From a virus (taxonomy: Duplodnaviria > Heunggongvirae > Uroviricota > Caudoviricetes): a stretch of DNA of 64,000 bases. The notes under the pieces are model-generated. The model was not told where the DNA came from. It ran no database searches and saw nothing but the letters and a program-made list of their open reading frames with translations. Positions 4,773-52,534 of this stretch are shown in pieces. The stretch lies in the IMG/VR virus record IMGVR_UViG_3300037279_000046; one strand, 5' to 3'. Position 1 is the stretch's first letter; the number at the start of each line of letters is the position of its first letter. Both the position numbers and the translations under genes were made by a program.

Positions 4773-4819
4773 GGCCGTGAGACTTACCTCACGCCCAATT
4801 ATCTTCAAAGGAGATAAAT

Positions 4820-21396: not shown

Positions 21397-22650
21397 TTAG
21401 TTGTCTTCAGACTTGTTTGCTGCAGCAGGCACTTTAGTGCGTGGAGCTTTAGCAGGTTGATCTTTGTTCATGCGATCGTTCAAATCCATGAAGGACTTAA
21501 GACCGATTGCGTCGAAGGGGTTCATTGCCGATTGACCGTTAGATCCACCGCCGATTACCATCATGCCTGGGAACTGAACACCAGCAAGCTCATGTGCTAC
21601 ACCGATGCGAGTCTCTTTGTCGATCGTCGCACGCTCAAGGGGAGTAAGACCTGCTTGAACTTTGAGGCGGTTAACTTCAGCAAGAGCTTTACCGTTCGTT
21701 ACTTCAGCCGCAGCATCTTGTTCAGCTTGTTTGCGTTTCAGCTGAGATACTTCGAACTCTTTCTGAGCGATAGTGACTTCTTTGATCTTCTCAACTTCTT
21801 GCTTAGCTTTCTCAATCGCGATCTGAGCATTACCTTGTTCGCGTGCAGTGATCGCATCTTGCTTAGCTTTTTCAGCGTTAGCTTTAGCGACAACTTTCAT
21901 CTGCTCAGCTTCTTTTTTCTTCTGGATCAGAGCATCGATAGTCTGGTCGAAGTCGATGTCTTTGATAACGAACTGGATGATGGTTACGTTATAAGCTTTG
22001 AGCGGAGAGATCTTGCGAACAACTGGCTGTCCAGCTTTGTCAAGCTTGATGTTGACTTCACGAGTCACGAACTCATTGCCGTCTGCATCTTTCTCTTTGA
22101 ATTCCTTAGCTTCAGTCTCGTAGATCCCGTTCTTTACTTGATCTTCCACAAGTGAAGTGAACTCAGAGCGACGAGTAGAGTACGACTCTTCAGCGCGCAT
22201 CAGAGTAGCCGTCTGCATCAAGGCTTCAGCAACAGTCTGACGAATCAGATCGTGCTTGACGCGCTCGTAAGACTTGAAGTCTTTATGCAGGAGCTTCTGA
22301 GTCTCAGGGTCAGAAGGTAGACGGAATTTGATGCCGCCAGACACCTTCGCAGTACCGCCGTCGTTGAAGCGAATGTCGATCGTGTCTGACTCAGCACCTT
22401 TGCCGCCGTCAAGATCTGACTTCGAGAAGTAGTACATGTCCGACACGTGGTAAGTTGTTACGTTACCGAAGAGCTTCAGATACGTACCTGACTCATTGTG
22501 AACAGTTACATCACCAGTAACAGCTGCCTGTTTAATCTGATAATAGCCTTGGTCATTCGTCGTGAACACTTCACGTCCGACCGTTGCCAGGATAAGAACT
22601 GCGACCAATCCGCCTACGGCGAGACCAATCAATTTAACTCGTGCGTCCAT
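21397..22650 (-). CDS. SPFH/band-7 (prohibitin/HflK-like) membrane protein
   Basis: N-terminal TM helix, SPFH core, and a long EAEQ..AKA..AKQ coiled coil typical of HflK/stomatin/prohibitin. Confidence 0.8.
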   Translation of the reverse strand: MDARVKLIGLAVGGLVAVLILATVGREVFTTNDQGYYQIKQAAVTGDVTVHNESGTYLKLFGNVTTYHVSDMYYFSKSDLDGGKGAESDTIDIRFNDGGTAKVSGGIKFRLPSDPETQKLLHKDFKSYERVKHDLIRQTVAEALMQTATLMRAEESYSTRRSEFTSLVEDQVKNGIYETEAKEFKEKDADGNEFVTREVNIKLDKAGQPVVRKISPLKAYNVTIIQFVIKDIDFDQTIDALIQKKKEAEQMKVVAKANAEKAKQDAITAREQGNAQIAIEKAKQEVEKIKEVTIAQKEFEVSQLKRKQAEQDAAAEVTNGKALAEVNRLKVQAGLTPLERATIDKETRIGVAHELAGVQFPGMMVIGGGSNGQSAMNPFDAIGLKSFMDLNDRMNKDQPAKAPRTKVPAAANKSEDN

Positions 22651-34045: not shown

Positions 34046-34094
34046 ATAATTGTCTCCCTCGTTACACTACTATTGTATCAGCACGAGTCGCCCC

Positions 34095-34149
34095 CGGTTA
34101 AAGAAAAGGAACCAACCTGGGTGCTAGGGAGGAGTCACACCCAGGTTGG
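34095..34149 (-). terminator. Rho-independent terminator/attenuator between the AAA+ and VWA genes
   Basis: Minus-strand 12-bp hairpin CCAACCTGGGTG...CACCCAGGTTGG followed by TTCCTTTTCTTTAA. Confidence 0.5.
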
Positions 34150-34160
34150 TATAGTCGCTA

Positions 34161-35300
34161 TTACTTAGTCTTTTTATCGACGCCAGTAGCACGACTGATT
34201 TTGATATTGTCTTTAAGGACTTTAACCAGTTCAGGATGGCGGCCAGTGAACTCTTTGAAGAAGTTCGTGATCTGACCTTTCGACTGCTTGTAACCACATT
34301 GTTTGATGAGGTTTACAGCGTGATCGGCAGGGATGATCTTGGCAACTTCTGCCATTATATCCTCGTCGATCTGGTCAGCCTTACAATCTTTCTTCAAACC
34401 ACCGTAGTATTTCTCGATGGACTCAACAGTTGCAGCGATCATATCGCCTTGGTATGTCTGTGGATCCGACATAGAGACGAGACGCTTCATTGCTGCAGAA
34501 CGATCTTTCAACAAATCCTGAGCAGTAACCGGAGCCGAGTCGTAGCAGAACTTGTGGTATTCGTTACCGATGTCTTTACCGAGGATCGAGCAGACAGTCA
34601 AACGGTGAAGAGCGCGGTTCTGATTGACACCAGCAAGCTCAGCAGCGTTAACTTTCGACCAAGTACGTGAAGAGATGTACTTGCCGTCTTTACCGATCTC
34701 TTTCGTGGACTTGTAAGTCCAGATACCAGAAGACACGAACATTTGGACAGAATCATGCCAGTTGGCAGCGTCCATGAAATCGATGAACGCAACGTGGTCG
34801 AATTCAACTTCGAACTCAACGAAACGATCTTTAAGAGCAGCATCCATTGTGTTGACATCGTACTCAGACGAGTCAGGGTTGATACATGAAGCAATCATCC
34901 AACCTGCGGGAACTGTGTAGTTGTGGACTTTGAAATCGGTCAACAGCTGCATTAAACAATTCATGACGCCAGTTGTTCCACGATTCGGTTCTTCAAGAAG
35001 GATCAAGCCTTCACCTTCAGTTGGCCAGAATTCAGGGAGCAAATGCTTCGTACGAGCAAGACCGTTCACGTCAACGCCTTCTGAAGGGAACCCGATCAAA
35101 TCCGGTGCCTCCATGTATGCGATACGAAGATCGATGAATCCGAAGTTCGGATTACGCTTCTGCTCTTTTTTCACCCATGCTTGGGTGATCTCAGATTTAC
35201 CGAGACCAGCTTCGCCGGTGAAGATAGGGTTGATTGTTTTGCCCATAAGGCGTGACTTATATGCCAGATCCAATACTGCGAAAATGTTACTAGGTTTCAT
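34161..35300 (-). CDS. cobS: MoxR-family AAA+ ATPase (CobS-like, AAA_5)
   Basis: Walker A GEAGLGKS, Walker B ILLEEPNR, sensor/arginine region ALKDRF; the size and architecture match phage cobS genes. Confidence 0.8.
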   Translation of the reverse strand: MKPSNIFAVLDLAYKSRLMGKTINPIFTGEAGLGKSEITQAWVKKEQKRNPNFGFIDLRIAYMEAPDLIGFPSEGVDVNGLARTKHLLPEFWPTEGEGLILLEEPNRGTTGVMNCLMQLLTDFKVHNYTVPAGWMIASCINPDSSEYDVNTMDAALKDRFVEFEVEFDHVAFIDFMDAANWHDSVQMFVSSGIWTYKSTKEIGKDGKYISSRTWSKVNAAELAGVNQNRALHRLTVCSILGKDIGNEYHKFCYDSAPVTAQDLLKDRSAAMKRLVSMSDPQTYQGDMIAATVESIEKYYGGLKKDCKADQIDEDIMAEVAKIIPADHAVNLIKQCGYKQSKGQITNFFKEFTGRHPELVKVLKDNIKISRATGVDKKTK

Positions 35301-36581: not shown

Positions 36582-37412
36582 ATGGCTGCAATCACTGAGC
36601 TAACAGATAATCTGGCATACGGAGTCGATGTAAAAAATCGCCGAATCTACTTTGGTGTTAACTTAGATACAGCAGAGTCCACTGAAGCCACCGACTTTAC
36701 TTTAGCCTCGGTAGAGATGGCTGTTAGAGCCATGCATAGAATGGCTTCGGATGCACCTAATAAACCTATTGAACTACACATGTCTTCGTATGGTGGAGAC
36801 ACGTACGCGATGCTCCGGTTGCACGACGAGATCTTGGCATGCCCTTGTCAGGTTCGCTTCTTCGGAAGCGGTCCTATCATGTCCTCGGCCACTTTTATAA
36901 TGTCTGTCTGTGACGAGCGTAATCTGCATGCTAACACCGTTGTAATGGTTCATGAACTTACTTCTGGTGGCGGTGGAAAACACACTGACATTAAGATCGA
37001 CGCTGCTGAGAACATGCGACTCATGGACCAACTCTGTGGTATCTATGAAGCCAACTCTCGTATGCCCAAGGAGTTCTGGTTAGACATCTGTCAACGGGAC
37101 GTGTACCTGACGGCCGGCGAAGCAGTGTCATTAGGTCTCGCCGATCGCATCTTAGAACCTAAGAAACGTGGTAACTTACGTAAGGCTCGCCAAGTAGCTA
37201 TGCGTAAAGAAGTAGATGTTAAAGAGATGAAGGACTTAGTGAAGAGCTTGTATGAGCGTACGAGCCGCACTCGTATTCCTAAGCTAGAATTCAACGAGAT
37301 CAAGAAAGAAGTAGCTGATCCACATCTGTTCGTAGATGAAAGCAAAACGCCTGAGAAATCCGTCTTGGATGCTCAGGCGCCCATCGTTCAGCTAGATGTA
37401 AAGAAAGATTAG
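36582..37412 (+). CDS. ClpP-fold serine protease paralog 1 (S14/S49-like)
   Basis: IELHMSSYGGDTYAMLRLHDEI ... GSGPIMSSATFIM ... VVMVHE aligns to ClpP INSPGG / GxAASMG / MIHQP. GGTATAATGT motif about 45 nt upstream. Confidence 0.75.
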   Translation: MAAITELTDNLAYGVDVKNRRIYFGVNLDTAESTEATDFTLASVEMAVRAMHRMASDAPNKPIELHMSSYGGDTYAMLRLHDEILACPCQVRFFGSGPIMSSATFIMSVCDERNLHANTVVMVHELTSGGGGKHTDIKIDAAENMRLMDQLCGIYEANSRMPKEFWLDICQRDVYLTAGEAVSLGLADRILEPKKRGNLRKARQVAMRKEVDVKEMKDLVKSLYERTSRTRIPKLEFNEIKKEVADPHLFVDESKTPEKSVLDAQAPIVQLDVKKD

Positions 37413-38431: not shown

Positions 38432-38682
38432 ATCCTTATTCCATCCAGACCTTCATATACATAGTCGCACTCAACAACCTTTAAAAGGTGTAGCAGATAT
38501 AGAAGGTTTCGAGTCTCTCTAATAATTTCATGGTCATCAAACGTATACATCCAAGTACTTCCCTGCGGAGGGTTATGCTCCGCCCAGAAGTCATTGTTAG
38601 GACCGTAGTGCCAGAAATTTCTAGTCATCGTCTCCGCCGAAGCCAAGACCCAAGCGGCCTTTTGCTTTCTCTTCGAAGTCAC
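38416..38682 (-). CDS. hypothetical protein
   Basis: 88-aa ORF. Confidence 0.4.
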   Translation of the reverse strand: MTSKRKQKAAWVLASAETMTRNFWHYGPNNDFWAEHNPPQGSTWMYTFDDHEIIRETRNLLYLLHLLKVVECDYVYEGLDGIRICGNR

Positions 38683-39628
38683 GCTTGAAGAGCTTAGAGT
38701 GTTCGACGATCTCTTTCACAACCTGCATATAGGTCTTGTCATCGAGCTCTGCACGGACAGCGATCTCTTCCAAGTGGGCAACCGAGAACTCTTCAGTTCC
38801 CTTTGTGCCAAGGCATTCCTTCTCGTCTTCAGTGAGATCACGCTTGCTGATGAATGTCATCAGGCTGATCTTCTCGTCATGACTCGGAGGAGCGAGCTTC
38901 AACATGAGGTCAAAGCGACCTGGGCGATCTGCGAGAGATGCCAACAGGCTCTGTGGATGGTTAGTAGTAGCTACAATGAACGTAGGGAGGCTGAATACAA
39001 CCCCAACGCCATCAAGGAGGTTCAACATTCCCGAGTCAACACCCGAGTTAGAGCGATGACGCTCGCTGTCGCCTCCACCGATGTCCTCGATGACGAGGAT
39101 CATGCGGGTGCAATCCGCAGTGTACTTGCTGTTAGTAGACAGGAGCTTGGCGATATCATCAGCCTCGATCTCTGAGGTCGGCCACATGATAACTACTGTA
39201 CCTGGATCTTCAGCGATGAGGTCAGAACAGAACTTCTCGATAGCAGAGCTCTTACCCATACCTGGGGCAGAGTAGAGCAATACGCCACGCTTCTTAAGGC
39301 GACCAAGCTTCTCGTACACGTGGAGACGCGAGAAGAACTTGTTGGCTTCAGCCATGATCTTAGTGGTGTTCGTAACCGTCTCAAGGAGGTTACGCTTCTT
39401 AAACTCGATTGGACGAAGTCCAAGACCAGCCATCGTCTTAGTGAAGACGAAAGTGCCAGGCTTGATCTCGTACTGGCGCTCGTCTTCAGGCTTCTCAAAC
39501 TTATACTGATAGATGAACTGACCATCCTGGAAGCAGAGATCCGACTCAGGGAGCTCGTTCTCTAGACCAGCGTTCATGTCGTTAAAGGATGTTTTCTTCT
39601 TCAGTACGAACTTGCCTTCGTCAATCAT
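38621..39628 (-). CDS. classic AAA-family ATPase with unassigned N-terminal domain
   Basis: Walker A GVLLYSAPGMGKSS, Walker B ILVIEDIGGG, and the second region of homology ATTNHPQSLLASLADRPGRFD. Confidence 0.8.
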   Translation of the reverse strand: MIDEGKFVLKKKTSFNDMNAGLENELPESDLCFQDGQFIYQYKFEKPEDERQYEIKPGTFVFTKTMAGLGLRPIEFKKRNLLETVTNTTKIMAEANKFFSRLHVYEKLGRLKKRGVLLYSAPGMGKSSAIEKFCSDLIAEDPGTVVIMWPTSEIEADDIAKLLSTNSKYTADCTRMILVIEDIGGGDSERHRSNSGVDSGMLNLLDGVGVVFSLPTFIVATTNHPQSLLASLADRPGRFDLMLKLAPPSHDEKISLMTFISKRDLTEDEKECLGTKGTEEFSVAHLEEIAVRAELDDKTYMQVVKEIVEHSKLFKRDFEEKAKGRLGLGFGGDDD

Positions 39629-43862: not shown

Positions 43863-45011
43863 TCATAACTCATCCTTAAACCGCTCGCCGACGGGGAAGA
43901 TTGGGATACCGTACTTAGAGATATACTGGTACTTAACAACAAGGGTTTTACCCTGCCACAATGAATGGTCGTTGAAGAAGTCCATTAGGCGTTCTTTAGG
44001 ACCGCGCATCTTAACATCAAACGTGTCCTCACCTTTGGGTGCAGTAGGCGAATGACATACGAAGATGGCGCAGCCAGCATAGCCGCCACGACCCTCTTTA
44101 ATACCGACGATTTGGAAGTCTGCGTCTTGAAACTCTTTAATCTTCTGTAGTCCATAGCTACGCTTACCTTGGTACTCGCCCTCGATATTGCGAGCCATTC
44201 CGCCTTCATATCCACGCTTCAAGAAAGACTCAAACGCATTCATCATGTCGTCTTCAGTCTTAACAGATACAGTCTCAGTAACGAATATGTAGTTGCACAT
44301 ACCGTTGACCATCTCGTAGCAATGAACGCTAGTGCGAAGGTTTTCAAATCTAGTAGCAAAACCATCCTTAGATGGCTTGTCGTACACGTGGTATTGAACC
44401 TCAGTACAGTTCTTCGCAGGCACTTCTTGACGAATCAATGAAGCAAGCTCTTCGAAGTTATCTTTGTAGGCGTGATTGTAAAGCTCTCCGTCGATCTCGT
44501 GGTATCCAGTAGTGAAGATCTTTTGAAGCTCCTCTACGATATGAGGACAGCTTGTGATGGGCTTGCGAGTACGAGACCAGAGCTTAGCAACACCGTCTTT
44601 AATGGTAGCAAGACAACGGTGACCGTTCAACTTAGGTTGAGTGTACGCTGGATACTTGATCTTATGGCCGTGGTCTGCGAACTTGTGAGCAAGCATGCAG
44701 TCATATCCACCGTCGATGTCTTTTTCGCCAGCTTCAGCACGGGAAACGTCTTCAACGTATCCCTTCTTGATCTTGCCTTCCCACTTTGCAGTGGCTTCGG
44801 CTAATGCTTGTTGTTCAGGAGTAGTAGCGTTCGCACGACCGGCATTCTTGCCCTCTTTGATTACTTCTTCAGTGCGTTGAATCTTACCGTCTTGTTGCCC
44901 AAAGTTAACAATAATGTTATTGCCATCAACACCAATTGACCACATTTGAGTCTTACCAGAACTAGCTTTTTTATACAAAACCGGCAAAGTTTTCATGTAT
45001 TTCACCACCAT
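43863..45011 (-). CDS. ATP-dependent DNA ligase
   Basis: Adenylation motif I PKLNGHRC (KxNGxR variant), motif III EIDGELY, motif IV EGGMARN and motif V FDVKMRG. Confidence 0.85.
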   Translation of the reverse strand: MVVKYMKTLPVLYKKASSGKTQMWSIGVDGNNIIVNFGQQDGKIQRTEEVIKEGKNAGRANATTPEQQALAEATAKWEGKIKKGYVEDVSRAEAGEKDIDGGYDCMLAHKFADHGHKIKYPAYTQPKLNGHRCLATIKDGVAKLWSRTRKPITSCPHIVEELQKIFTTGYHEIDGELYNHAYKDNFEELASLIRQEVPAKNCTEVQYHVYDKPSKDGFATRFENLRTSVHCYEMVNGMCNYIFVTETVSVKTEDDMMNAFESFLKRGYEGGMARNIEGEYQGKRSYGLQKIKEFQDADFQIVGIKEGRGGYAGCAIFVCHSPTAPKGEDTFDVKMRGPKERLMDFFNDHSLWQGKTLVVKYQYISKYGIPIFPVGERFKDEL

Positions 45012-45049: not shown

Positions 45050-45571
45050 ATGAAAAATTGTTCCAATTCTAGTTGTACACAAGTAAATCCTCAACCATTA
45101 ATTAACTTTGCTAAAAATCAAAAGAGCAAAGATAAACTACAACCATGGTGCAAATTATGTTGTAAAAGGCGACAAGCTGAATATCAAGTACAAAATAGAG
45201 AAAGTGTCAACAAAACTGCAAGAGAGTGGTGTAGACGCAATAAAGAAAAAACCAACAAGAAATGCAAAGAATATTATGACAATAATCCAGATAAAGTTAA
45301 AGACTATAAGTTGCGAACTAGTTTTGGCATAACATTAGAACAATATAGGAAAATGTCTGCAAGTCAGAATCACACTTGTGCTATATGTAAACAGCCAGAA
45401 ACTTCTAAAGATCATAGAGGGAAGTTGAGATATTTAGCAGTCGATCACTGTCATAAAACAGGTAAAATTAGAGGCCTATTGTGTCAAAAACATAATAGAA
45501 TGCTTGGTCTTGCAAACGATGAACAACATATACTGTTGGCAGCTGCAGATTACGTTAGTAAAAATAAATAA
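45050..45571 (+). CDS. Endonuclease VII-like protein with Cys-rich N-terminal extension
   Basis: HTCAICKQPE...VDHCHKTGKIRGLLCQKHN; TATAAT-like box 8 nt upstream. Confidence 0.7.
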   Translation: MKNCSNSSCTQVNPQPLINFAKNQKSKDKLQPWCKLCCKRRQAEYQVQNRESVNKTAREWCRRNKEKTNKKCKEYYDNNPDKVKDYKLRTSFGITLEQYRKMSASQNHTCAICKQPETSKDHRGKLRYLAVDHCHKTGKIRGLLCQKHNRMLGLANDEQHILLAAADYVSKNK

Positions 45572-45994
45572 TCATTTAAACTTCTCCACTGCTCTGATTG
45601 CAGAGCTAGAAATATGAACCAAAGTGCGATCACAGATGAAATATACGATCGGAATCGTAAGTCCAAGGTCCTCACACCAGTACTGCTGAGTCTTCTCTGC
45701 ATCTAGATCTTTGCCGTCACGTAGGCCACGAATGATTGCTACTGCGTCAACATGTTTTGCAAAGTCAGGAAGTAGTCCGTCATAAGTTTGCACATCAACA
45801 TACTGATCGTTATATCTAACGTGTTCTGGAATCCTAAAGATTGGATTGTTATTGTGAGGGTTATTGAAGTTCTTTTCTGGGTTATTACCAATGCCAATAA
45901 TAACCTTATCGAACAAGAGCAATGACTTATTTAGTATTTCTTCGTGACCTTTATGCCACGGGTTAAAGCTTCCTGGATATATTGCTACTCTCAT
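45572..45994 (-). CDS. cytidylyltransferase-fold adenylyltransferase (PPAT/CoaD-like; candidate NMN adenylyltransferase)
   Basis: MRVAIYPGSFNPWHKGHEEIL (HxGH motif) and ISSSAIR; closely resembles the E. coli CoaD layout. Confidence 0.75.
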   Translation of the reverse strand: MRVAIYPGSFNPWHKGHEEILNKSLLLFDKVIIGIGNNPEKNFNNPHNNNPIFRIPEHVRYNDQYVDVQTYDGLLPDFAKHVDAVAIIRGLRDGKDLDAEKTQQYWCEDLGLTIPIVYFICDRTLVHISSSAIRAVEKFK

Positions 45995-46422
45995 AAGAAC
46001 AGCCCAGCCATAGCAAGAATGGTTAGACCATGCAAGAGCTGATCAAACCCGATTGTGGTGTAAAACAGGTGATCATTCCAGTACTGCCAGTTCTTACCAC
46101 TCTCAGCCATCCACTTATTTTTCTCTTCTTGAGAAATTGTGAAGGCATCAGCTTCTTTCTTGATTCGATAGTAGGCGCTTGCCTTATATAAGCGCCAGAT
46201 GTTCCAATCAATCACGCCATGAATAAGGGAATTTAGTAGGGCAATCTTAAGTGCTATCAACGGATTGACAACGATCATAAGTCCAAATAAGAAGAATGCG
46301 GTTTGAATAGCCAGGTGCTTTGCGAGCCAGATAAACTCTGAACTCTTCTTTTGACCCATCTCACGCGATTGAAATATAAAATCTGCCACAAAATGCAGAA
46401 TAAACATGTATGCGATGATCAT
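45991..46422 (-). CDS. polytopic membrane protein
   Basis: 3-4 predicted TM helices. Confidence 0.5.
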   Translation of the reverse strand: MIIAYMFILHFVADFIFQSREMGQKKSSEFIWLAKHLAIQTAFFLFGLMIVVNPLIALKIALLNSLIHGVIDWNIWRLYKASAYYRIKKEADAFTISQEEKNKWMAESGKNWQYWNDHLFYTTIGFDQLLHGLTILAMAGLFL

Positions 46423-46454
46423 AGACCCTCCTTATAGAGGATTATACGATCAGA

Positions 46455-47147
46455 TTATTCGTCAGTGCCCGAGCATGTATGAGGAGCAAGGTAAGAGATA
46501 TACACGTCGCAATCGAGCTTAACGATCTTCTGAGCGAGGTGTAACTTCACCATCTCTTCAGAGTCAACAGACCATTCGGTATCGGTGATCTTTTTTTCGT
46601 AATCAGCCTTAGACATACCAATCACAGAGTAGATGGCTTCGTCGAACTCATCAGATGATCTCTGTAAGCCCTCGATGGCACGAGTATTGTGAACTAGTTT
46701 AGCAGTTGCGTGTTGCCAGAACATCTCGTGCATAATCATTCTAGAGTTTGCTACGACAAGGCGATGTAGACTGGTTGCTTGGATGTATCCTGCAGCAGAG
46801 CCACAGTACTTACAGATAACTACGACATTGGGGAGTTGAGCTATTAGCTTTCTGAGTACGACTGCTTGGTCGTATTGTCCGCCACCAGAGTTAATAATAA
46901 GGTAGATATTCTGGTCTTGTGGAACCATCACGCGCTTACCAATGATGGCATTGAACCAAGTGTTGACGGATACCGCGGTGAACTCACCCTCGAGCACCAT
47001 CGTATTTTGAGCTGTCATGGTGACTGTTTCAATTGGCTTATTAGGAGTTACGGCTGCGACAACCACTAGGGTGAAGAACAATGACAAGAAAAGAATTGAC
47101 ATTCTTTTAAGGATCTGTCTGACGATCATAATTAACTCCAGGTTCAT
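46455..47147 (-). CDS. ClpP-fold serine protease paralog 2 with N-terminal signal/TM segment (NfeD/SppA-like?)
   Basis: MSILFLSLFFTLVVVAAV leader; YLIINSGGGQYDQAVVL ... CGSAAGYI ... MIMHEM. Confidence 0.7.
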   Translation of the reverse strand: MNLELIMIVRQILKRMSILFLSLFFTLVVVAAVTPNKPIETVTMTAQNTMVLEGEFTAVSVNTWFNAIIGKRVMVPQDQNIYLIINSGGGQYDQAVVLRKLIAQLPNVVVICKYCGSAAGYIQATSLHRLVVANSRMIMHEMFWQHATAKLVHNTRAIEGLQRSSDEFDEAIYSVIGMSKADYEKKITDTEWSVDSEEMVKLHLAQKIVKLDCDVYISYLAPHTCSGTDE

Positions 47148-47179
47148 CTTCTAATGATACCCTGGATAAGGATTAGACA

Positions 47180-48004
47180 CTATTGGTTACCGAGTAGTTC
47201 TCGCACCATTTTGCCAGTCTTAATCGCTGTTGCTTGCGATGTTCCAGTCATGAATGCTTGACCTTCAGCAGATGAATACGAGCGTGCGTTTGTACCAAAC
47301 TCCCACACTTTTACAGTCGAACCATAGTTAGAAGTTGGTGCTCTCTTGCCACTCTCTTCCTTATTGCCGACAACAACGATGCGCTTGTCGTAGTAAGCAG
47401 GATAGTAATGCTTGCCAGCCTGATCGATGTCAGACTTCTCATTGCCTGCAGCAAATACCAGAGTGATACCCTTGTTCAAGGCTTCCTCAACAAGAGCTTT
47501 CTCTTCTGAACTTGAGTCAGTACCGCCACCAGAGATGTTGATAAAGTCTACCTTCTCGTCTATAGCAGCCCTAATAGCCTTTTTCATTGATTCGAGGTTA
47601 TTATTGTAAGGTTTAGTGGGGTCATAATACTTCAGAACCACGATGCAGAAATTAGCTTTCATGTTTGCAATTGTCTTAGGATAGACGCCATAACCTAGGA
47701 ATTTGTTCTTGGCATATTGATCGATGAGACCAGCGATATGAGTGCCATGGCCATGATGATCTGTCAGACCAGTATCAGTGAAGTCCTTGCTTCCGGTCTC
47801 GCAGATCATTGGGGAATAGCGTAAAGAATCGGCGATACCTGTGTCGATAACTGCGATCTTAATAAGATGATGTAGCTTGCTAGCCTGAGTAACCACTTCT
47901 TTAGCCGGAGGCGTGGTATTTGCCTCACTGGCCGAACAGCCAGCGATTATAGCTATACTAGGTATTAGAACCTTTAGGCTTTTCATTCGAAACACCTTCC
48001 GCAA
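47180..48004 (-). CDS. subtilisin-like (S8) serine protease, probable lipoprotein
   Basis: Lipobox-like IIAGCSAS; catalytic triad motifs AVIDTGI, HGHGTHIAG and GTSQATA. Confidence 0.8.
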   Translation of the reverse strand: MRKVFRMKSLKVLIPSIAIIAGCSASEANTTPPAKEVVTQASKLHHLIKIAVIDTGIADSLRYSPMICETGSKDFTDTGLTDHHGHGTHIAGLIDQYAKNKFLGYGVYPKTIANMKANFCIVVLKYYDPTKPYNNNLESMKKAIRAAIDEKVDFINISGGGTDSSSEEKALVEEALNKGITLVFAAGNEKSDIDQAGKHYYPAYYDKRIVVVGNKEESGKRAPTSNYGSTVKVWEFGTNARSYSSAEGQAFMTGTSQATAIKTGKMVRELLGNQ

Positions 48005-48109
48005 GTCTTATTACTCGTGTAAGTATCTCATTTCGGAAACTACATTTAGTCTCGTGCCTAGCAAATTCGGCATATCGTTTGATATATGCCGAATCATAGT
48101 TCATCGACT

Positions 48110-48706
48110 TTAATCCTTCGAAGAGTTCGTAGGCTTCGTTCGATGTCCGGTTTTTGGCCCTAATCCTGTCGTCTTCTGAGAATCCCATTTGTCACGCTCT
48201 TCTTTCCGTTTCTTCTCTTCGATCTCATACGCGTAATGCTCACGCATTAATTCTTCTACCTGTTCGCGTGAATAGGTCGGATAGTTCTTAGGCATCGTCA
48301 TCATTGGAGGCTGTTCATACGGAGCATTAGAAGCAGCAAGAAGCTCTGCAACCTGCTCACGAGTATAAGTTCCATAAGCGCTTGGGCCGTTCTTAGGCTT
48401 GTCGGCGGCTTTCTTATTGATCTTAAACTCTAACTCAGGATCAAACTCAGGTTCTTCATACTTCTCAGGATGAGACTCGCGGAGTTCAAACTCTTCTTCT
48501 TGCTCAGGGGTAAGCTGTCTTTCTTTGAGAGCATCGAGCATAGCCTTTTCGATATCTTTGAACTTAGTTCCAAGTATCTCATGGCAAATAGCCTGTTTAA
48601 GTTCAACAGAGTTGAGAATCTCGTTAGCGCGGAGTACTTTTTCCTCGCGACTTAGTTTATCAAGGCCACAGAGCTGCTGAATTCGACGCTTCAATTTTTT
48701 ACTCAA
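48110..48706 (-). CDS. hypothetical charged protein
   Basis: 198-aa ORF, Glu/Lys-rich. Confidence 0.45.
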   Translation of the reverse strand: MSKKLKRRIQQLCGLDKLSREEKVLRANEILNSVELKQAICHEILGTKFKDIEKAMLDALKERQLTPEQEEEFELRESHPEKYEEPEFDPELEFKINKKAADKPKNGPSAYGTYTREQVAELLAASNAPYEQPPMMTMPKNYPTYSREQVEELMREHYAYEIEEKKRKEERDKWDSQKTTGLGPKTGHRTKPTNSSKD

Positions 48707-48782
48707 GAAGACTCCTCGTTAAGAACATTATATCACCCGGGCCACTAGGACCCAGATGACGGTGTCTAACTAACGGGCACTC

Positions 48783-49130
48783 TTACTTGTTATTAACGTC
48801 GAGCGTCTTCTCCAAGTCTTGGTCGAATTGTAAGTCGAATGATACAGCTGCAGTCTCTTCAACAATCTTATTGAACATCTCATCCTTGAAGGCCTGATGA
48901 TCAGTCTCAGAGATAGCTTTGCAGATCTCCAACTTCACTACTTCTTGGTTCTGCCAAGTTGGATCCTTAGCGAATACATCCATGGCAGCCTGTAAGTTAG
49001 CAGGAATTGGGATATTAAAGTGTCTCCAAAAATCAAGAGCGGCATTGCAATCTTCAGGGGAGATTGCGACCTTTTGATCTACTTCGTTTGTTGCTTTTTG
49101 CTCGTTTTGATCCGACATAGGACCTCCCAT
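48783..49130 (-). CDS. hypothetical acidic protein
   Basis: 115-aa ORF. Confidence 0.45.
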   Translation of the reverse strand: MGGPMSDQNEQKATNEVDQKVAISPEDCNAALDFWRHFNIPIPANLQAAMDVFAKDPTWQNQEVVKLEICKAISETDHQAFKDEMFNKIVEETAAVSFDLQFDQDLEKTLDVNNK

Positions 49131-49846
49131 TAACGTTTCTTAGTATCGGTTTTCTTTTTAGGAGACGATTTGCGTTTTCCAGCAGTCTTTTTACCTGTCG
49201 TAATTGACTGCTTCTGACGTGAAGCAAACGGAGCCTTAATGGGTTGTTTAGTAACTTCGTATTGAACTTTACCAAAGACCTTAGGTGTACCGATAGTGTC
49301 TACGATGCCGAACTTAACAGCTTCTTGGCCGACTAAGTAACGATCAGTTCCGTCTTGTTGCTTGATAACTGAGCGGAATTCATCATAGTTCTTGAAGCCG
49401 CAGTTGCGTGCCAACAGACCCATGAAATACTCGTTTAAGCGAGTAGTCTCATTAACGTCTGCCTTCATGTCGTGTACGTTCCCGCCGGTCCCAGATGAGA
49501 CTTCGTGGACCATGACACGTGAGTGTCGGCCCAAGAAACGGACGTCCCCGTGTGACAATAGGACAGCTCCGCAGCTCATTGCCTTACCCATACAGACAGT
49601 AACAATGGGGTTCGGGACTTCATCAATGGTCTCAATCATCTTGGCCAAGGCGTCTACATAGCCACCATAAGAGTCGATGTGAATAGTAATAGGTCGGCTG
49701 GGGTCAGTTGCAGCGATAGCTATAACTGATGCTCTGAACTTTTGCGCGTGTTCCTCGTCGAATTTGGTAACCCAGATTTCTGGGAGCTTAAGAGTATCGT
49801 CTTCCATTAGAACCACCTTTCCAGTAAAAGAATTGTACTTGGCCAT
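49130..49846 (-). CDS. ClpP-fold serine protease paralog 3 with basic C-terminal tail
   Basis: ITIHIDSYGGYVDALAKMIETI ... GKAMSCGAVLL ... RVMVHEV; C-terminal KKTAGKRKSSPKKKTDTKKR. Confidence 0.75.
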   Translation of the reverse strand: MAKYNSFTGKVVLMEDDTLKLPEIWVTKFDEEHAQKFRASVIAIAATDPSRPITIHIDSYGGYVDALAKMIETIDEVPNPIVTVCMGKAMSCGAVLLSHGDVRFLGRHSRVMVHEVSSGTGGNVHDMKADVNETTRLNEYFMGLLARNCGFKNYDEFRSVIKQQDGTDRYLVGQEAVKFGIVDTIGTPKVFGKVQYEVTKQPIKAPFASRQKQSITTGKKTAGKRKSSPKKKTDTKKR

Positions 49847-49886
49847 AATTCATAACTAATAGAGTTGACATAGTAAAATAGCTAAT

Positions 49887-50360
49887 ATGGTAAAACAATG
49901 TCGTAGATGTAATGAGTCAAAATCTGTCGGTGATTTTCCAAAATGCAAAACCAATAAAGATGGTCTATACTCTTATTGTAAAGAATGCAATTCTCGTAAA
50001 GTTAAAGGCCACTACGTGGTTAAATCAGAAGAAAGAAAAGCATATCAAAGGTCTGTATCTAAGGCAATACAAAAGGATAGGGATCTTAAGTCAGTTTATG
50101 GAATTACTCTCGAGCAATATAAGTTAATGCTGAAAAATCAAGACGGTAAGTGTGCAATTTGCAAACAATATGAGACAAAAGTTAATTCAAAAAGCAAAGA
50201 AACTTTAATGCTCTCTGTGGATCATAGTCATAGAACGGGCAAAGTAAGGGCCTTATTGTGTAATAGATGCAATAGAGGACTTGGTTACTTTAAAGATAAT
50301 CCAGAGTTTTGCATTTCTGCGGCAAATTATCTAACCGAACATAAAGATATAATAGAGTGA
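49887..50360 (+). CDS. Endonuclease VII-like protein with Cys-rich N-terminal extension
   Basis: GKCAICKQYE...VDHSHRTGKVRALLCNRCN; possible TTGACA box upstream. Confidence 0.7.
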   Translation: MVKQCRRCNESKSVGDFPKCKTNKDGLYSYCKECNSRKVKGHYVVKSEERKAYQRSVSKAIQKDRDLKSVYGITLEQYKLMLKNQDGKCAICKQYETKVNSKSKETLMLSVDHSHRTGKVRALLCNRCNRGLGYFKDNPEFCISAANYLTEHKDIIE

Positions 50361-50373
50361 GAACGAGGTCATA

Positions 50374-51174
50374 ATGGATAAAATCGACGCACTCATAAAG
50401 AAACTCCAAGAAGCTAAAGAAGAGCTGTCTAAAGCTGATGTCGTGAAGCCAGACACCGGATACGGAAAGATTACAATCAAGGATAATACTCCGAAGTCGC
50501 AGAAACCTGCTGACCCACAGAAACCCTACGGTAAGGTAATCATCAAGGCTGAATCTGCTCCTGCAGCACCTAAGCCACAAGCCGTTAGCATCGGTAAGCA
50601 CTCCAATGGCAAGTTTAAAGCTTATAACTGGAAGGCAGGCCAAGTAGCTATGCACCCAGAAGAGTTCGACACTCATGATGCAGCTAAGGCTCACTATGAA
50701 GCCAAAGGTCATATGATCAAGTCTGAAGAAGAATTAGAGAAAGATGCAGCTAACCCTAAGCTTGCACCCAAAGAAGTAAAGATCAAAGAACTTCAAGGCA
50801 AGATCGACTCAGGTACCTACAAAATTCCTGCTGCCAAAATTGCTGACAAGATGCTTGGTAAGAGCGACAAAGAGACTGAAAAAGAAGCTATGGACGCTGA
50901 GTTCGGCAAAATGGCTAAAGATGAAGCAATGATGATGGGCGAAGGATGCGGAATGGAAGCTATGGCTATGTCTAAAGACGGCCAATGGTCTTTCAAGAAA
51001 TCTGCATTCAAAGAGCTCGAAAGCAAACTCGAGCATGAAGGCAAGTCGAAAGAATCAGCCGGCGCTATTGCTTACTCTGTAGGCGAGAAGAAATACGGTA
51101 AAGCTGGTATGGAAGCGAAAGCTAAAGCCGGCGAAGCCAAGAAAGGCGACATGGGCGACGGAGAGATGTGCTGA
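50374..51174 (+). CDS. lysine-rich protein with internal FlgM-like (anti-sigma-28) motif
   Basis: KIKELQGKIDSGTYKIPAAKIADKMLG resembles the FlgM consensus I..G.Y.VD..KIAD.LL; the rest is low-complexity KE/AG-rich with a C-terminal Cys. Confidence 0.45.
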   Translation: MDKIDALIKKLQEAKEELSKADVVKPDTGYGKITIKDNTPKSQKPADPQKPYGKVIIKAESAPAAPKPQAVSIGKHSNGKFKAYNWKAGQVAMHPEEFDTHDAAKAHYEAKGHMIKSEEELEKDAANPKLAPKEVKIKELQGKIDSGTYKIPAAKIADKMLGKSDKETEKEAMDAEFGKMAKDEAMMMGEGCGMEAMAMSKDGQWSFKKSAFKELESKLEHEGKSKESAGAIAYSVGEKKYGKAGMEAKAKAGEAKKGDMGDGEMC

Positions 51175-51796: not shown

Positions 51797-52534
51797 TTAA
51801 CTAAAAAGTTCAGTGTAGTTTTCTCTTAAAGATTGAGCTATATCAGGCAACTCTTTTTCAAAAACTTCAAACGCTGCTGCTGCAATTTCTCTATGTTCTA
51901 GTTGAGTTGACTTATCAAGTCTTGTCATAAAATAAGTCATCCACGATCTAATAGATCCACTCATATAGAGTGTAGTTGAGCAACCGAGAGGCAATACAAA
52001 TCTAGCACATTCCTTAGCAATCCCATTGTCAAGCGCCCAAGTATAATGTTCAAATGAACTCTTCCAATTCTGGTCTTGGCGATCGAGCCACTCTTGCTTT
52101 ACTAATTCTGACAGATCGTCTATTGAATTCTGGCGGTTCTTTACGTCTTGTCTTCTTGCAGCATATAGCTGAAGTCCGCCTGCGTCTACCGCCGCATATC
52201 GCTGGCTAAACTCTTGAAATGTAAAAGAACGATGTCTCAATAGTTGAGGACTAATTCCTCTTGAGGTTTTCACTTGAATGGTGAGAGTTCCCATCTCAAA
52301 TGGACTCCAATGTTTATGCTTTAACAGATAATTTATCAACCTAATTGAAGTGTCGAACTTAAGTTGATTTTGTGGCGCAGAAACTCTCGCACAATACACA
52401 ATTAACTCCTGAGCTCCAGGCGTACAAGATAATAATTCGACTAGCTTTTCTGAAGAAGAAACATTCGATAATTCTTCGATAATTTTGTCATCACTCTGCA
52501 TTATTTGGCTCCTCATTTCTGGTAAGATTATCAT
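51797..52534 (-). CDS. thyX: flavin-dependent thymidylate synthase ThyX
   Basis: ThyX signature LLRHRSFTFQEFSQRY (RHRx7-8S). Confidence 0.85.
   Translation of the reverse strand: MIILPEMRSQIMQSDDKIIEELSNVSSSEKLVELLSCTPGAQELIVYCARVSAPQNQLKFDTSIRLINYLLKHKHWSPFEMGTLTIQVKTSRGISPQLLRHRSFTFQEFSQRYAAVDAGGLQLYAARRQDVKNRQNSIDDLSELVKQEWLDRQDQNWKSSFEHYTWALDNGIAKECARFVLPLGCSTTLYMSGSIRSWMTYFMTRLDKSTQLEHREIAAAAFEVFEKELPDIAQSLRENYTELFS

What the first reader, a model, noticed from the sequence alone, without database searches (positions are those of the whole stretch)
46455..49846. Three ClpP-fold protease paralogs (one exported) plus an SPFH/prohibitin-like protein: possible NfeD/STOPP-stomatin-type membrane protease system
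ClpP-fold genes at 36582 (+), 46455 (-, with signal/TM leader) and 49130 (-, with basic tail) all retain Ser and His catalytic motifs. In cells, membrane-bound ClpP-class NfeD/STOPP proteases are operon partners of SPFH/stomatin proteins, and this phage encodes a large SPFH protein (21397-22650). None of the three lies in an obvious head-morphogenesis module, so they are unlikely to all be prohead proteases. Possible roles are a phage-encoded membrane proteolysis or scaffolding system for superinfection exclusion, lysis timing or envelope remodelling, or degradation of host defence proteins.
Basis: inference. Interest (0 to 1): 0.65.

Follow-up and report, generated by a model that had tools for sequence, protein, structure and literature searches.

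The report
Phage protease cassette with secreted ClpP-like enzyme
The three ClpP-like protease genes are real but are not a stomatin-partner (NfeD) system: two are atypical cytoplasmic phage peptidases, and the third belongs to an apparently undescribed phage family of secreted ClpP-fold proteases, sitting in a gene slot that sister phages fill with a trypsin-like protease.

Summary
Observation confirmed. ORFs 46455-47147 (ClpA), 49130-49846 (ClpB) and 36582-37412 (ClpC) all match Pfam Clp_protease and keep the catalytic Ser and His. ClpA has an export leader, ClpB a basic tail, and 21397-22650 is an SPFH protein.

The NfeD/STOPP reading fails every defining test. There is no NfeD OB domain, no multi-pass membrane region and no Ser-Lys dyad, and the SPFH gene lies 14-27 kb away.

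What is there is a co-directional cassette: ClpB, orf115, orf198, a 76-aa ORF, an S8 subtilase lipoprotein, ClpA, then DNA ligase after a short insertion. It is conserved in an abundant uncultured phage lineage of about 175 kb. The position just before the ligase always holds an exported serine protease: ClpA in 4 lineages, a membrane-anchored or lipoprotein trypsin-like enzyme in 7.

ClpA belongs to a phage-borne family with signal peptides, four invariant cysteines and invariant Ser/His. It has no match in 50,697 GenBank phage records.

ClpB and ClpC lack ClpP's N-terminal loops and ATPase-docking pocket, and group with phage ClpP-related proteases, including head-maturation proteases.

Function is inferred: periplasmic proteolysis of envelope proteins by S8 and ClpA. 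The role of ClpB and ClpC is unresolved, and one of them could still be the prohead protease.

The parts
49130..49846 (-). ClpB: cytoplasmic ClpP-related peptidase with a conserved basic C-terminal tail. First gene of the cassette. Gene callers start it at Met14, giving 225 aa.
   Evidence: Pfam PF00574 at E 1.8e-28. S/H/D triad and oxyanion Gly conserved, N-terminal loops absent, and F82E, L114G, L189G in the docking pocket. 580 homologues, many on 172-180 kb contigs. No signal peptide in 0/120 family members, and a conserved basic tail.
48783..49130 (-). orf115: small acidic all-helical protein whose start overlaps the ClpB stop. It always accompanies ClpB in this lineage.
   Evidence: Present next to ClpB in every locus of the lineage. 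115 homologues, none with a Pfam domain. Net charge -12. AF2 model is helical at pLDDT 70, with no PDB fold match.
48110..48706 (-). orf198: charged protein of unknown function, conserved between orf115 and the exported proteases.
   Evidence: tblastn matches in L001-L004. No Pfam, PHROG or NCBIfam hit.
47958..48188 (-). 76-aa ORF (MGFSEDDRIRAKN...) overlapping the end of orf198 and the start of the S8 gene.
   Evidence: Homologous ORFs at the same position in L001, L002, L004 and L007. No Pfam hit. Gene callers call only 48 aa.
47180..48004 (-). S8 subtilase with a lipoprotein signal (…IAIIAG|CSAS). The likely start is the ATG at 47986, giving 268 aa.
   Evidence: Pfam PF00082 at E 1.8e-24. 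PHROG 3677 protease at 2.3e-33. D (VIDTG), H (HGTH) and S (GTSQA) motifs and the lipobox were read directly. Homologues in relatives also carry signal peptides.
46455..47147 (-). ClpA: Sec-exported ClpP-fold serine peptidase occupying the exported-protease slot. Gene callers start it at Met7, giving 224 aa.
   Evidence: Pfam PF00574 at 24.7 bits. AF2 pLDDT 79.5, with best PDB folds all bona fide ClpP. Family invariants are S87, G89, G90, C112, C115, S117, H140, C213 and C225. Signal-peptide-like N-termini in 141/148 family representatives. Same position in L022, L023 and L045. No hit in GenBank phages.
43863..45011 (-). ATP-dependent DNA ligase, the conserved downstream boundary of the slot. 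In the window, a DUF3307 membrane protein, a cytidylyltransferase and an HNH endonuclease are inserted between ClpA and the ligase.
   Evidence: PHROG 114 at 5.2e-71. Position relative to the slot in 10 loci.
36582..37412 (+). ClpC: second cytoplasmic ClpP-related peptidase, with a conserved C-terminal extension of about 85 aa. It is a lone + strand gene within a - strand block.
   Evidence: Pfam PF00574 at E 1.6e-22. Triad conserved and pocket residues changed. Conserved block orf335-orf82-ClpC-orf155-orf126-ATPase379-DUF2201.
21397..22650 (-). SPFH/Band_7 membrane protein. It is not linked to the cassette.
   Evidence: Pfam PF01145 at E 1.5e-12. N-terminal TM segment. No NfeD-like neighbour. 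Adjacent to ClpC only in L024 and L025.
38621..39628 (-). orf335: soluble classical-clade AAA ATPase, 1.2 kb from ClpC.
   Evidence: Pfam PF00004 at E 4.1e-8. Best PDB sequence matches are the Cdc48/AFG2 D2 domains, YjoB and BCS1. Neighbour of ClpC in the window, L002, L005 and L025.

Best explanation
The three ClpP-fold genes are three separate, deeply diverged lineages, not one system.

(1) The flagged interval is a tightly packed, co-directional cassette in an abundant uncultured phage lineage of about 175 kb: ClpB, orf115, orf198, a 76-aa ORF, an S8 lipoprotein subtilase and ClpA. This is shown.

(2) S8 and ClpA are exported by the Sec pathway into the host periplasm. S8 would be a lipoprotein and ClpA a soluble or N-terminally anchored, disulfide-bonded Ser-His peptidase. 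This is inferred from sequence.

(3) The position immediately upstream of the DNA ligase is an exported serine-protease slot. ClpA fills it in 4 lineages and a membrane-anchored or lipoprotein trypsin-like protease fills it in 7. Selection therefore appears to act on having a protease in the envelope, not on the fold. The pattern is shown; the reading is inferred.

(4) The most likely job is cleavage of host envelope proteins during infection, for example receptors or entry machinery (superinfection exclusion), envelope-located defence proteins, or outer-membrane tethers. This is inferred, and no substrate is known.

(5) ClpB and ClpC are cytoplasmic ClpP-related peptidases. They keep the catalytic triad but lack ClpP's N-terminal gating loops and its IGF/LGF docking pocket, so they probably do not work with ClpX or ClpA. 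The sequence features are shown; the consequence is inferred. Their targets are unknown.

(6) The SPFH protein is an independent membrane protein.
For: - **Domain calls:**
- **Cassette and slot:** at least one exported serine protease lies between orf115 and the ligase in all 11 distinct lineages examined. These are S8+ClpA in the window, L022, L023 and L045; S8+trypsin-like in L001, L002 and L004; and trypsin-like only in L003, L005, L007 and L009. The window has no trypsin-like homologue.
- **Export of ClpA:** its homologues have AXA-type signal peptides. N-terminal hydrophobic segments occur in 72/76 and 69/72 family representatives, against 0/120 in the ClpB family. Four cysteines are invariant.
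- **Fold and active site of ClpA:** AF2 model plus Foldseek, invariant S117 and H140, and 29/33 family members matching PF00574 with none matching S49 or NfeD.
- **Phage-borne family:**
- **ClpB and ClpC features:**
- **Tree:** the ClpA family forms its own clade (89%). ClpB and ClpC fall in a phage-specific clade (100%) apart from cellular ClpP.
- **Operon structure:** gene spacing read, and no promoter or terminator excess.
Against: - Export is predicted from hydropathy, AXA motifs and cysteine conservation only. No dedicated signal-peptide predictor or experiment was available.
- No substrate, expression-timing or host information exists.
- The acidic third residue of ClpA (E191) is not invariant; it is Ala in P0004.
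- Outside this lineage, ClpA relatives have varied neighbours: a secreted HExxH peptidase, Minor_tail_Z, terminase, or a replication module. Context therefore does not pin down a role.
- ClpB and ClpC group with head-maturation proteases in the tree, and only about 72 kb of the roughly 175 kb genome was seen (the 64-kb window plus about 7.7 kb upstream in L043). A capsid role for one of them is not excluded.
Confidence: 0.55

Rival explanations
1. One reading: the ClpP-fold proteins are NfeD/STOPP-like membrane proteases that work with the phage SPFH protein, cleaving or scaffolding it as PH1510 does with stomatin PH1511.
For: ClpA is membrane-targeted or exported, and the SPFH protein has an N-terminal TM segment, so both could face the same compartment. 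In L024 and L025 the SPFH gene lies about 700 bp from ClpC, between the AAA ATPase and ClpC. ClpB gives a sub-threshold NfeD1b_N hit.
Against: There is no NfeD OB domain, no multi-pass TM region and no Ser-Lys dyad. The SPFH gene is 14-27 kb from all three genes in the window. In L024 and L025 it is convergent with ClpC, with a gene in between. The SPFH loci L026 and L027 have no Clp gene nearby. The neighbour of SPFH is ClpC, which has no membrane segment, not ClpA. NfeD1b_N is itself a ClpP-like domain, so a weak cross-hit is expected.
Confidence: 0.05
2. ClpB or ClpC is the capsid (prohead) maturation protease of this phage, displaced from the capsid genes as happens in some large phages. 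Its C-terminal tail or extension would target it into the procapsid.
For: In an NJ tree, ClpB and ClpC fall with 100% support in a phage-specific clade that contains bona fide head-maturation proteases adjacent to portal and capsid genes (Gordonia phage Kiko gp5, Xanthomonas phage MK21). Their best PHROG hits are head-maturation protease families. Like prohead proteases, both lack ClpP's ATPase-docking features. Both are conserved core genes of the lineage. ClpC has a conserved 85-aa C-terminal extension and is a lone opposite-strand gene.
Against: Neither gene is next to portal, scaffold or capsid genes, in the window or within 10 kb in relatives. ClpB is co-directional and tightly packed with exported proteases and DNA-metabolism genes. 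Both score far below the NCBIfam head-maturation cut-off (58 and 61 against 120). Similar stand-alone ClpP-like genes sit in replication or nucleotide modules of Myxococcus phage Mx1, Bacillus phage Kirov and Serratia phage BF. The internal nodes of the tree are weakly supported.
Confidence: 0.25
3. ClpC and the neighbouring AAA ATPase (orf335) form a phage-encoded ATP-dependent protease, a classical AAA unfoldase feeding a ClpP-like chamber.
For: The AAA gene is within about 1.2 kb of ClpC in the window and also neighbours it in L002, L005 and L025. orf335 has Walker A and B motifs and arginine fingers, and resembles the Cdc48/AFG2 D2 domains.
Against: The two genes are on opposite strands. 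L007, L008 and L012 have the ClpC-like gene without the AAA gene. By hand alignment to FtsH, orf335 has no aromatic-hydrophobic-Gly pore-loop motif (sequence). ClpC lacks the canonical docking pocket. BCS1- and YjoB-like AAA proteins are not protease partners.
Confidence: 0.1
4. ClpB and ClpC are ordinary ClpP homologues that hijack host ClpX or ClpA to degrade host proteins, as proposed for ClpP genes in jumbo phages.
For: ClpP occurs patchily in jumbo phages and has been suggested to act against the host (Iyer et al. 2021, PMC7824862). The best PDB sequence matches of ClpB and ClpC are bona fide ClpPs.
Against: The N-terminal axial loops are absent, and F82E, L114G and L189G are fixed in the ClpB family. 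ClpC has Y60E, and F82 is replaced by A, H or S in its family. By contrast, Serratia phage BF gp097 keeps the canonical ClpP N-terminus and clusters with cellular ClpP. Scores are far below the TIGR00493 cut-off (73.9 and 51 against 308.6).
Confidence: 0.1

Closest known systems
ClpP (MEROPS S14, Pfam PF00574), the proteolytic core of the ClpXP and ClpAP proteases
   Same: All three proteins have the ClpP fold or profile, the INSxGG oxyanion motif, and Ser and His at the ClpP positions. ClpB and ClpC also keep the Asp. The ClpA model superposes best on solved ClpPs.
   Different: ClpB and ClpC lack the N-terminal gating loops and have charged or small residues in the IGF/LGF pocket. ClpA has a signal peptide in place of the N-terminal loops, four invariant cysteines and a variable acidic residue. 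All three score far below the ClpP equivalog cut-offs.
ClpP-related phage head-maturation proteases (NCBIfam NF045542; for example Gordonia phage Kiko gp5)
   Same: ClpB and ClpC fall in the same phage-specific clade and share the loss of the ATPase-docking features.
   Different: They are not adjacent to portal, scaffold or capsid genes, and they score below the family cut-off. ClpA is outside this clade.
Stand-alone ClpP-like genes of large phages (Myxococcus phage Mx1, Bacillus phage Kirov gp208, Microcystis phage Mel-JY01; ClpP of Rak2-like jumbo phages)
   Same: They are stand-alone ClpP-fold genes embedded in replication, nucleotide or NAD-salvage regions. Kirov even has an S8 protease, a ClpP-like gene, DNA ligase, PRPP synthetase and NAPRT in one neighbourhood.
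   Different: Those phages show no exported ClpP-fold copy, and the Kirov S8 has no signal peptide. The Rak2-like ClpP (Serratia phage BF gp097) is a canonical ClpP, unlike ClpB and ClpC.
NfeD/STOPP long form (PH1510) with stomatin
   Same: It has a ClpP-like protease domain associated with the membrane, and an SPFH protein is encoded in the same genome.
   Different: The window proteins have no OB-fold NfeD domain, no multi-pass TM region, a Ser-His pair instead of a Ser-Lys dyad, and no operon with the SPFH gene.
SppA/SohB (S49), the envelope-facing ClpP-fold peptidases of bacteria
   Same: They place ClpP/crotonase-fold serine peptidase domains on the periplasmic side of the membrane, as predicted for ClpA.
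   Different: S49 enzymes use Ser-Lys and match PF01343. No ClpA family member matches S49, and the family keeps an invariant His at the ClpP position.

Membership tests
NfeD/STOPP long form | Gene forms an operon with an SPFH/stomatin gene (PMC4208085, PMC2636767) | tested here: not met
   SPFH at 21397-22650 is 14 kb from ClpC and 24-27 kb from ClpA and ClpB. In L024 and L025, SPFH and ClpC are convergent with a gene between them.
NfeD/STOPP long form | C-terminal NfeD OB-fold domain (PF01957) | tested here: not met
   No PF01957 hit in ClpA, ClpB, ClpC or the SPFH neighbours at E<=0.01.
NfeD/STOPP long form | Several membrane-spanning segments between the protease and OB domains | tested here: not met
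   A hydropathy scan gives ClpA one N-terminal segment and ClpB and ClpC none.
NfeD/STOPP long form | Ser-Lys catalytic dyad (Ser97/Lys138 in PH1510) | tested here: not met
   Ser and His align with ClpP S97 and H122 and are invariant in all three families. No conserved Lys was found.
NfeD/STOPP long form | Pfam NfeD1b_N at or above its gathering score | tested here: not met
   ClpB scores 27.6 bits against a cut-off of 40. ClpA and ClpC give no hit.
[quoted passage not shown] | ClpP fold / PF00574 above its gathering score | tested here: met
   24.7, 100.1 and 80.7 bits against a cut-off of 20.2. The ClpA model matches solved ClpPs with TM up to 0.78 normalised to the target.
[quoted passage not shown] | Ser-His-Asp triad and oxyanion Gly | tested here: met
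   ClpB and ClpC keep S, H, D (D/E across the ClpB family) and G68. ClpA keeps S117, H140 and the SGGG motif, but its acidic residue is variable.
[quoted passage not shown] | N-terminal axial loops (residues 1-19) that gate the pore and contact the ATPase | tested here: not met
   This region is deleted in ClpB, unrelated in ClpC and replaced by a signal peptide in ClpA. It is present in Serratia phage BF gp097.
[quoted passage not shown] | Hydrophobic IGF/LGF (ADEP) pocket: L48, F49, Y60, Y62, F82, I90, M92, L114, L189 | tested here: not met
   The ClpB family has F82E, L114G, L189G and Y60T/V. ClpC has Y60E, F82A/H/S and L114H/Y. The residue list comes and the E. coli sequence was verified.
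[quoted passage not shown] | NCBIfam/TIGR equivalog cut-off (TIGR00493, 308.6 bits) | tested here: not met
   ClpB scores 73.9 bits and ClpC 51 bits. ClpA gives no hit.
[quoted passage not shown] | Heptameric or tetradecameric chamber | not testable with these tools
   No multimer prediction was available.
ClpP-related phage head-maturation protease | NF045542 at or above its cut-off (120 bits) | tested here: not met
   58, 61.1 and 20.9 bits.
ClpP-related phage head-maturation protease | Gene lies next to portal, scaffold or major capsid genes | tested here: not met
   None was recognised in the window or within 10 kb in relatives. The reference proteases do have this arrangement.
ClpP-related phage head-maturation protease | Phylogenetic grouping with known prohead proteases | tested here: inconclusive
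   ClpB and ClpC share a 100%-supported phage clade with them, but the internal nodes are weak. ClpA is outside the clade.
ClpP-related phage head-maturation protease | Presence in procapsids and processing of the capsid protein | not testable with these tools
   This needs proteomics or genetics.
SppA/S49 | PF01343 or TIGR00706 match and a Ser-Lys dyad | tested here: not met
   There is no PF01343 hit. TIGR00706 gives 20.9 bits against a cut-off of 155 for ClpB only.
Subtilase S8 (ORF 47180-48004) | PF00082 above its gathering score, with Asp/His/Ser motifs | tested here: met
   87 bits against a cut-off of 21.8. The VIDTG, HGTH and GTSQA motifs were read.
SPFH/Band 7 (ORF 21397-22650) | PF01145 above its gathering score and a membrane anchor | tested here: met
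   48.4 bits against a cut-off of 23.6. N-terminal TM segment at residues 1-30. No solved relative was found by sequence.

The most novel reading that the evidence does not exclude
The secreted ClpP-fold family could be the first ClpP-type (Ser-His) self-compartmentalising peptidase that works outside the cytoplasm without an ATPase. The slot upstream of the ligase could be an arms-race locus in which large phages swap exported proteases of unrelated folds (ClpP, trypsin), next to an S8 subtilase present in some lineages, to destroy host envelope receptors or envelope-based immunity. A cytoplasmic ClpP-like gene paired with a secreted one also recurs in an unrelated SU10-like phage (L036), so the two might be functionally coupled.
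Probability: 0.2. Interest if true: 0.75.

Novelty: new variant of a known kind. Interest (0 to 1): 0.5.

Why it matters
Phage proteases are normally thought of as capsid-maturation enzymes or hijackers of host Clp machinery. Here a common, uncultured lineage of large phages reserves a fixed genome position for a serine protease that is sent into the host envelope, and the enzyme's fold is interchangeable. This points to a little-studied layer of phage-host conflict in the periplasm.

The secreted ClpP-fold family has hundreds of metagenomic clusters and no match in GenBank phage records. It would extend the ClpP scaffold to an ATP-free, oxidising compartment. It also gives a directly testable candidate for superinfection exclusion, counter-defence or outer-membrane disruption.

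The work also shows that 'ClpP' or 'head maturation protease' labels on large-phage genes hide at least three different kinds of protein.

Tried and rejected
- **Near-identity DNA search:** 46000-50400 against GenBank phages gave no match.
- **NfeD hypothesis:** tested feature by feature and rejected.
- **Small NfeD-like partner beside SPFH:** none found in the window or in L025-L027.
- **orf115:** homologue search, AF2 model and Foldseek against PDB gave an all-helical model with no significant match, so nothing about function.
- **Promoter and terminator scan of the cassette:** fewer promoter-like sites than the shuffled mean and no excess of terminators.
- **The search for related loci with the broad ClpA alignment A2:** failed because no stretch was conserved enough. 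The narrower A1 found only one IMG/VR locus and one MAG prophage.
- **AFDB fold search:** library unavailable.
- **Extending the view of the genome beyond the window:**
  - Two look-ups failed because of alternative start codons.
  - One returned a 967-bp contig.
  - One reached 7.7 kb further left, where large + strand ORFs had no family match apart from one weak tail-fibre-assembly hit in an ORF that is itself in the window.
  - The capsid module was therefore not located.
- **Possible fourth ClpP/crotonase-fold gene (2309-2833, PHROG 'enoyl-CoA hydratase-like'):** Pfam gives only a weak C92 amidase hit, so rejected.
- **Megaphage LR756511.1:** it shares only the ClpB-like gene, not the cassette.
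- **First bootstrap tree:** timed out and was redone with a faster distance routine.
- **Literature searches for secreted ClpP-like or phage periplasmic proteases:** no direct precedent found.

Full report
**1.

- ORFs 46455-47147(-), 49130-49846(-) and 36582-37412(+) are called ClpA, ClpB and ClpC here. These labels follow window order and have nothing to do with the Clp ATPases.
- All three match Pfam Clp_protease above its gathering score: 24.7, 100.1 and 80.7 bits against a cut-off of 20.2.
- They are 22-28% identical to each other and to E. coli ClpP.
- Ser and His align with ClpP S97 and H122 in all three. The Asp aligns in ClpB and ClpC, while ClpA has Glu there.
- ClpA has one N-terminal hydrophobic segment. 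ClpB and ClpC have none.
- ORF 21397-22650 is an SPFH/Band_7 protein with an N-terminal membrane segment.
It is an S8 subtilase (PF00082, E 1.8e-24) with a lipobox (…IIAG|CSAS) and intact Asp/His/Ser motifs (sequence).

**2. Genome context**

- The window has no close DNA relative among GenBank phages.
- Its genes are mostly nucleotide, DNA and NAD metabolism genes. They include NAMPT, a PRPP-synthetase-like gene, ATP-dependent DNA ligase, class II RNR, ThyX, a ThyA-like gene, dCMP deaminase and peptide deformylase. Several HNH/Endo VII endonucleases are also present.
- ClpB has 580 homologues at 63-78% identity. Many sit on contigs of 172-180 kb, so this is an abundant uncultured phage lineage of about 175 kb.
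- No capsid, portal or scaffold gene was recognised in the window or within 10 kb of the Clp genes in relatives.
- Large unannotatable + strand ORFs begin just left of the window and may be structural.

**3. The NfeD/STOPP reading fails**

Long-form NfeD/STOPP is defined by four features (PMC4208085; PMC2636767):
- an N-terminal ClpP-like protease with a Ser-Lys dyad;
- several membrane spans;
- a C-terminal OB-fold domain;
- an operon with a stomatin gene.

None of these is met.
- There is no PF01957 hit.
- There is at most one membrane segment.
- Ser and His are invariant at the ClpP positions.
- The only NfeD1b_N hit is ClpB, below threshold at 27.6 against 40.
- The SPFH gene is 14-27 kb from the three Clp genes.

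In two related contigs (L024, L025) the SPFH gene lies between the AAA ATPase gene and ClpC. There it is convergent with ClpC and separated from it by a lipoprotein-like ORF. Two other SPFH loci have no Clp gene nearby. That is weak evidence for neighbourhood, not for an operon. The neighbour is also ClpC, which has no membrane segment.

**4. What the flagged interval is**

On the minus strand the genes run: ClpB, orf115 (its start overlaps the ClpB stop), orf198, a 76-aa ORF overlapping both of its neighbours, S8, and ClpA after a 32-nt gap. There is no excess of promoter-like or terminator-like sites.

HMMs built from each family were searched against all fetched loci, with L045 taken from its called genes. 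The pattern was consistent.
- Wherever the ClpB-orf115 pair occurs with enough flank, at least one exported serine protease lies between orf115 and the DNA ligase.
- S8 plus ClpA occurs in the window, L022, L023 and L045.
- S8 plus a trypsin-like protein occurs in L001, L002 and L004.
- A trypsin-like protein alone occurs in L003, L005, L007/8/12 and L009.

The trypsin-like proteins match PF13365 and carry GxSG motifs. They have an N-terminal membrane anchor, or a lipoprotein signal in L007. The window has no trypsin-like homologue.

The position next to the ligase is therefore a slot for an exported serine protease, filled by either of two unrelated folds. This is non-orthologous displacement.

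**5. ClpA belongs to a distinct secreted ClpP-fold family**

- A word-indexed search found only 8 relatives.
- An exhaustive profile search found 2,291 cluster representatives at E<=1e-3, of which 75 were at E<=1e-30. Those listed are about 200-250 aa long when full-length.
- Signal-peptide-like N-termini occur in 72/76 close and 69/72 more distant representatives, against 0/120 ClpB homologues.
- Close homologues show classic AXA cleavage sites.
- Across 33 members (27-44% identity) the invariant residues are S87/G89/G90 (the ClpP INSxGG oxyanion motif), S117, H140 and four cysteines: C112, C115, C213 and C225. Conserved cysteine pairs fit an oxidising, extracytoplasmic location.
- The acidic third residue is not invariant.
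- The AF2 model (pLDDT 79.5) matches bona fide ClpPs best.
- 29/33 members hit PF00574 and none hits S49 or NfeD.
- The family is phage-borne wherever context was seen:
  - beside a secreted HExxH peptidase in a 58-kb phage contig (L030);
  - near an S8 gene and beside Minor_tail_Z (L035), and beside Minor_tail_Z alone (L046);
  - at the end of a replication module (L037);
  - as a truncated copy in a prophage of a Bdellovibrionales MAG (L031);
  - in an SU10-like phage, again paired with a cytoplasmic ClpP-like gene two small ORFs upstream (L036).
- ClpA has no tblastn match in 50,697 GenBank phage records.
- The closest BFVD models are unstudied 'ClpP' entries from uncultured phages.
- I found no description of such a family in the searched literature.

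**6. ClpB and ClpC**

- Both keep the catalytic triad and the oxyanion Gly.
- ClpB lacks the N-terminal axial loops. ClpC has an unrelated N-terminus.
- Using the ADEP/IGF pocket residue list and a verified E. coli sequence, the ClpB family has F82E, L114G and L189G fixed, and Y60T/V. ClpC has Y60E, F82A/H/S and L114H/Y.
- Serratia phage BF gp097, a jumbo-phage ClpP, keeps the canonical N-terminus.
- An NJ tree was built from 35 sequences, 190 columns and 200 bootstraps.
  - Cellular ClpP and BF gp097 group together (85%).
  - The ClpA family forms its own clade (89%).
  - ClpB (86%) and ClpC (100%) fall in a 100%-supported phage-specific clade. That clade also holds true head-maturation proteases (Kiko gp5 and MK21, both next to portal and capsid genes) and the stand-alone ClpP-like genes of Mx1, Kirov, Mel-JY01 and L036.
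  - Internal nodes are weak.
- ClpB and ClpC are therefore phage ClpP-related peptidases that are unlikely to dock ClpX or ClpA.
- Their setting resembles the stand-alone ClpP-like genes in the replication and nucleotide modules of Mx1, Kirov and BF. Kirov even has S8, a ClpP-like gene, ligase, PRPP synthetase and NAPRT together.
- Iyer et al. 2021 proposed an anti-host role for patchily distributed jumbo-phage ClpP.
- A capsid-maturation role for one of them cannot be excluded, because only about 72 kb of the genome (the 64-kb window plus about 7.7 kb to its left in L043) was visible.
- The ClpB basic tail, the always-coupled acidic orf115 and the conserved 85-aa C-terminal extension of ClpC are unexplained.

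**7. Mechanism**

Shown:
- the gene content and order;
- the conserved slot;
- the fold and active-site conservation;
- the signal-peptide-like N-termini and the invariant cysteines;
- the loss of ClpX/ClpA-docking features in ClpB and ClpC.

Inferred:
- S8 and ClpA are exported and active in the periplasm, S8 as a lipoprotein.
- They cleave host envelope proteins.
- The purpose is superinfection exclusion, removal of envelope-based defence, or weakening of outer-membrane tethers.
- ClpB and ClpC act independently of Clp ATPases.

The soluble AAA ATPase next to ClpC is a possible partner. However, by hand alignment it lacks a canonical pore-loop motif, and it is absent from some relatives.

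**8. Verdict**

What is present is a new variant of a known kind: a phage protease cassette with an interchangeable exported-protease slot, one occupant of which belongs to an apparently undescribed secreted ClpP-fold family. Interest is moderate, because the biology is unexpected and testable but rests on prediction.

Noticed in passing
window 47958-48188 (-): A conserved 76-aa ORF (MGFSEDDRIRAKN...) overlaps the last 79 nt of orf198 and the start of the S8 gene. Homologues sit at the same place in L001, L002 and L004. In L007 the homologue lies directly upstream of the trypsin-like lipoprotein. Gene callers call only 48 aa. It could be translationally coupled to the exported protease or reached by a frameshift from orf198.
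   Followed up: partly
window 50374-51174 (+): A 266-aa protein with a FlgM anti-sigma-28 domain (PF04316, E 2.6e-7, above the cut-off) is encoded on the strand opposite to ClpB. A FlgM-domain gene holds the same position between ThyX and ClpB in L022, L023 and L045. It may be a phage-encoded anti-sigma factor.
   Followed up: no
window 38621-39628 (-): A soluble classical-clade AAA ATPase lies 1.2 kb from ClpC. Its best PDB sequence matches are the Cdc48/AFG2 D2 domains, YjoB and BCS1. It also neighbours ClpC in L002, L005 and L025. By hand alignment it has no aromatic pore-loop motif.
   Followed up: partly
window 32654-35300 (-): A Walker-A/B P-loop ATPase (34161-35300; PHROG 1297 'ATPase', no Pfam hit) sits beside a DUF2201 protein with a putative metallopeptidase N-domain and a VWA-like domain (32654-34045). 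PHROG labels the latter an HNH endonuclease. The pair is conserved next to the ClpC block in L002, L005, L007 and L025.
   Followed up: no
L024 and L025 (IMG/VR contigs), e.g. L025 3017-8675: In these relatives the SPFH gene lies between the AAA ATPase gene and ClpC. An ORF with a YbiA/NADAR-like sequence (my reading, not run against any profile library) and a lipoprotein-like 158-aa ORF lie in between. In the window the same genes are 14 kb apart, so this part of the genome is rearranged between relatives.
   Followed up: partly
L036 6850-8747 (55.7-kb SU10-like phage contig, beach sand metagenome): A cytoplasmic ClpP-like gene (190 aa), a 3-TM membrane protein (86 aa), an acidic 110-aa ORF and a secreted ClpP-like gene (248 aa) lie just upstream of the terminase, portal and capsid genes. 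The pairing of a cytoplasmic and a secreted ClpP-fold gene therefore recurs outside the window's lineage.
   Followed up: partly
L042 (Bacillus phage Kirov, NC_071041.1 78403-86921): This phage has a similar neighbourhood despite a Gram-positive host: an S8 protease (31% identical to the window's S8, no signal peptide), RNA ligase, a kinase-like ATPase, a ClpP-like gene, ATP-dependent DNA ligase, PRPP synthetase and nicotinate phosphoribosyltransferase.
   Followed up: partly
L031 8642-9235 (Bdellovibrionales MAG JBGSNU010000047.1): A truncated copy of the secreted ClpP-fold gene diverges after the ICKYCGSAAG motif. It lies in a prophage-like region with an integrase and an ORF that I read as capsid-like. 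This is the only genome-derived hint about possible hosts of phages carrying the family.
   Followed up: no
window 45991-46422 (-): A DUF3307 multi-pass membrane protein with conserved His motifs starts 32 nt downstream of ClpA. A homologue also lies next to the S8 gene in L003. In L022, L023 and L045 it is absent, and the ligase follows ClpA directly.
   Followed up: no
window 9503-10300 (-) and 51797-52534 (-): The window encodes both a ThyA-like thymidylate synthase (PF00303) and a ThyX (PF02511). It also encodes a peptide deformylase (15018-15707) and an NAD-salvage set: NAMPT (17785-19212), a PRPP-synthetase-like gene (19930-20754) and an HD-domain protein (20715-21215).
   Followed up: no
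window 45050-45571 (+), 49887-50360 (+), 5632-6732 (-), 28046-29236 (-): Several HNH/Endonuclease VII-type homing endonuclease ORFs are scattered through the window. Two flank the protease cassette, and one appears fused to a dCMP deaminase. They may explain insertions relative to sister phages.
   Followed up: no
window 1-5200 (+) and L043 1-10000: The left end of the window continues a run of + strand ORFs of up to 1,094 aa. Of the ORFs in this run checked against profile libraries, only two gave matches. These are a weak tail-fibre-assembly hit for 825-1721, and for 2309-2833 a PHROG 'enoyl-CoA hydratase-like' hit plus a weak C92 amidase hit. This is probably the edge of a structural module.
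   Followed up: partly
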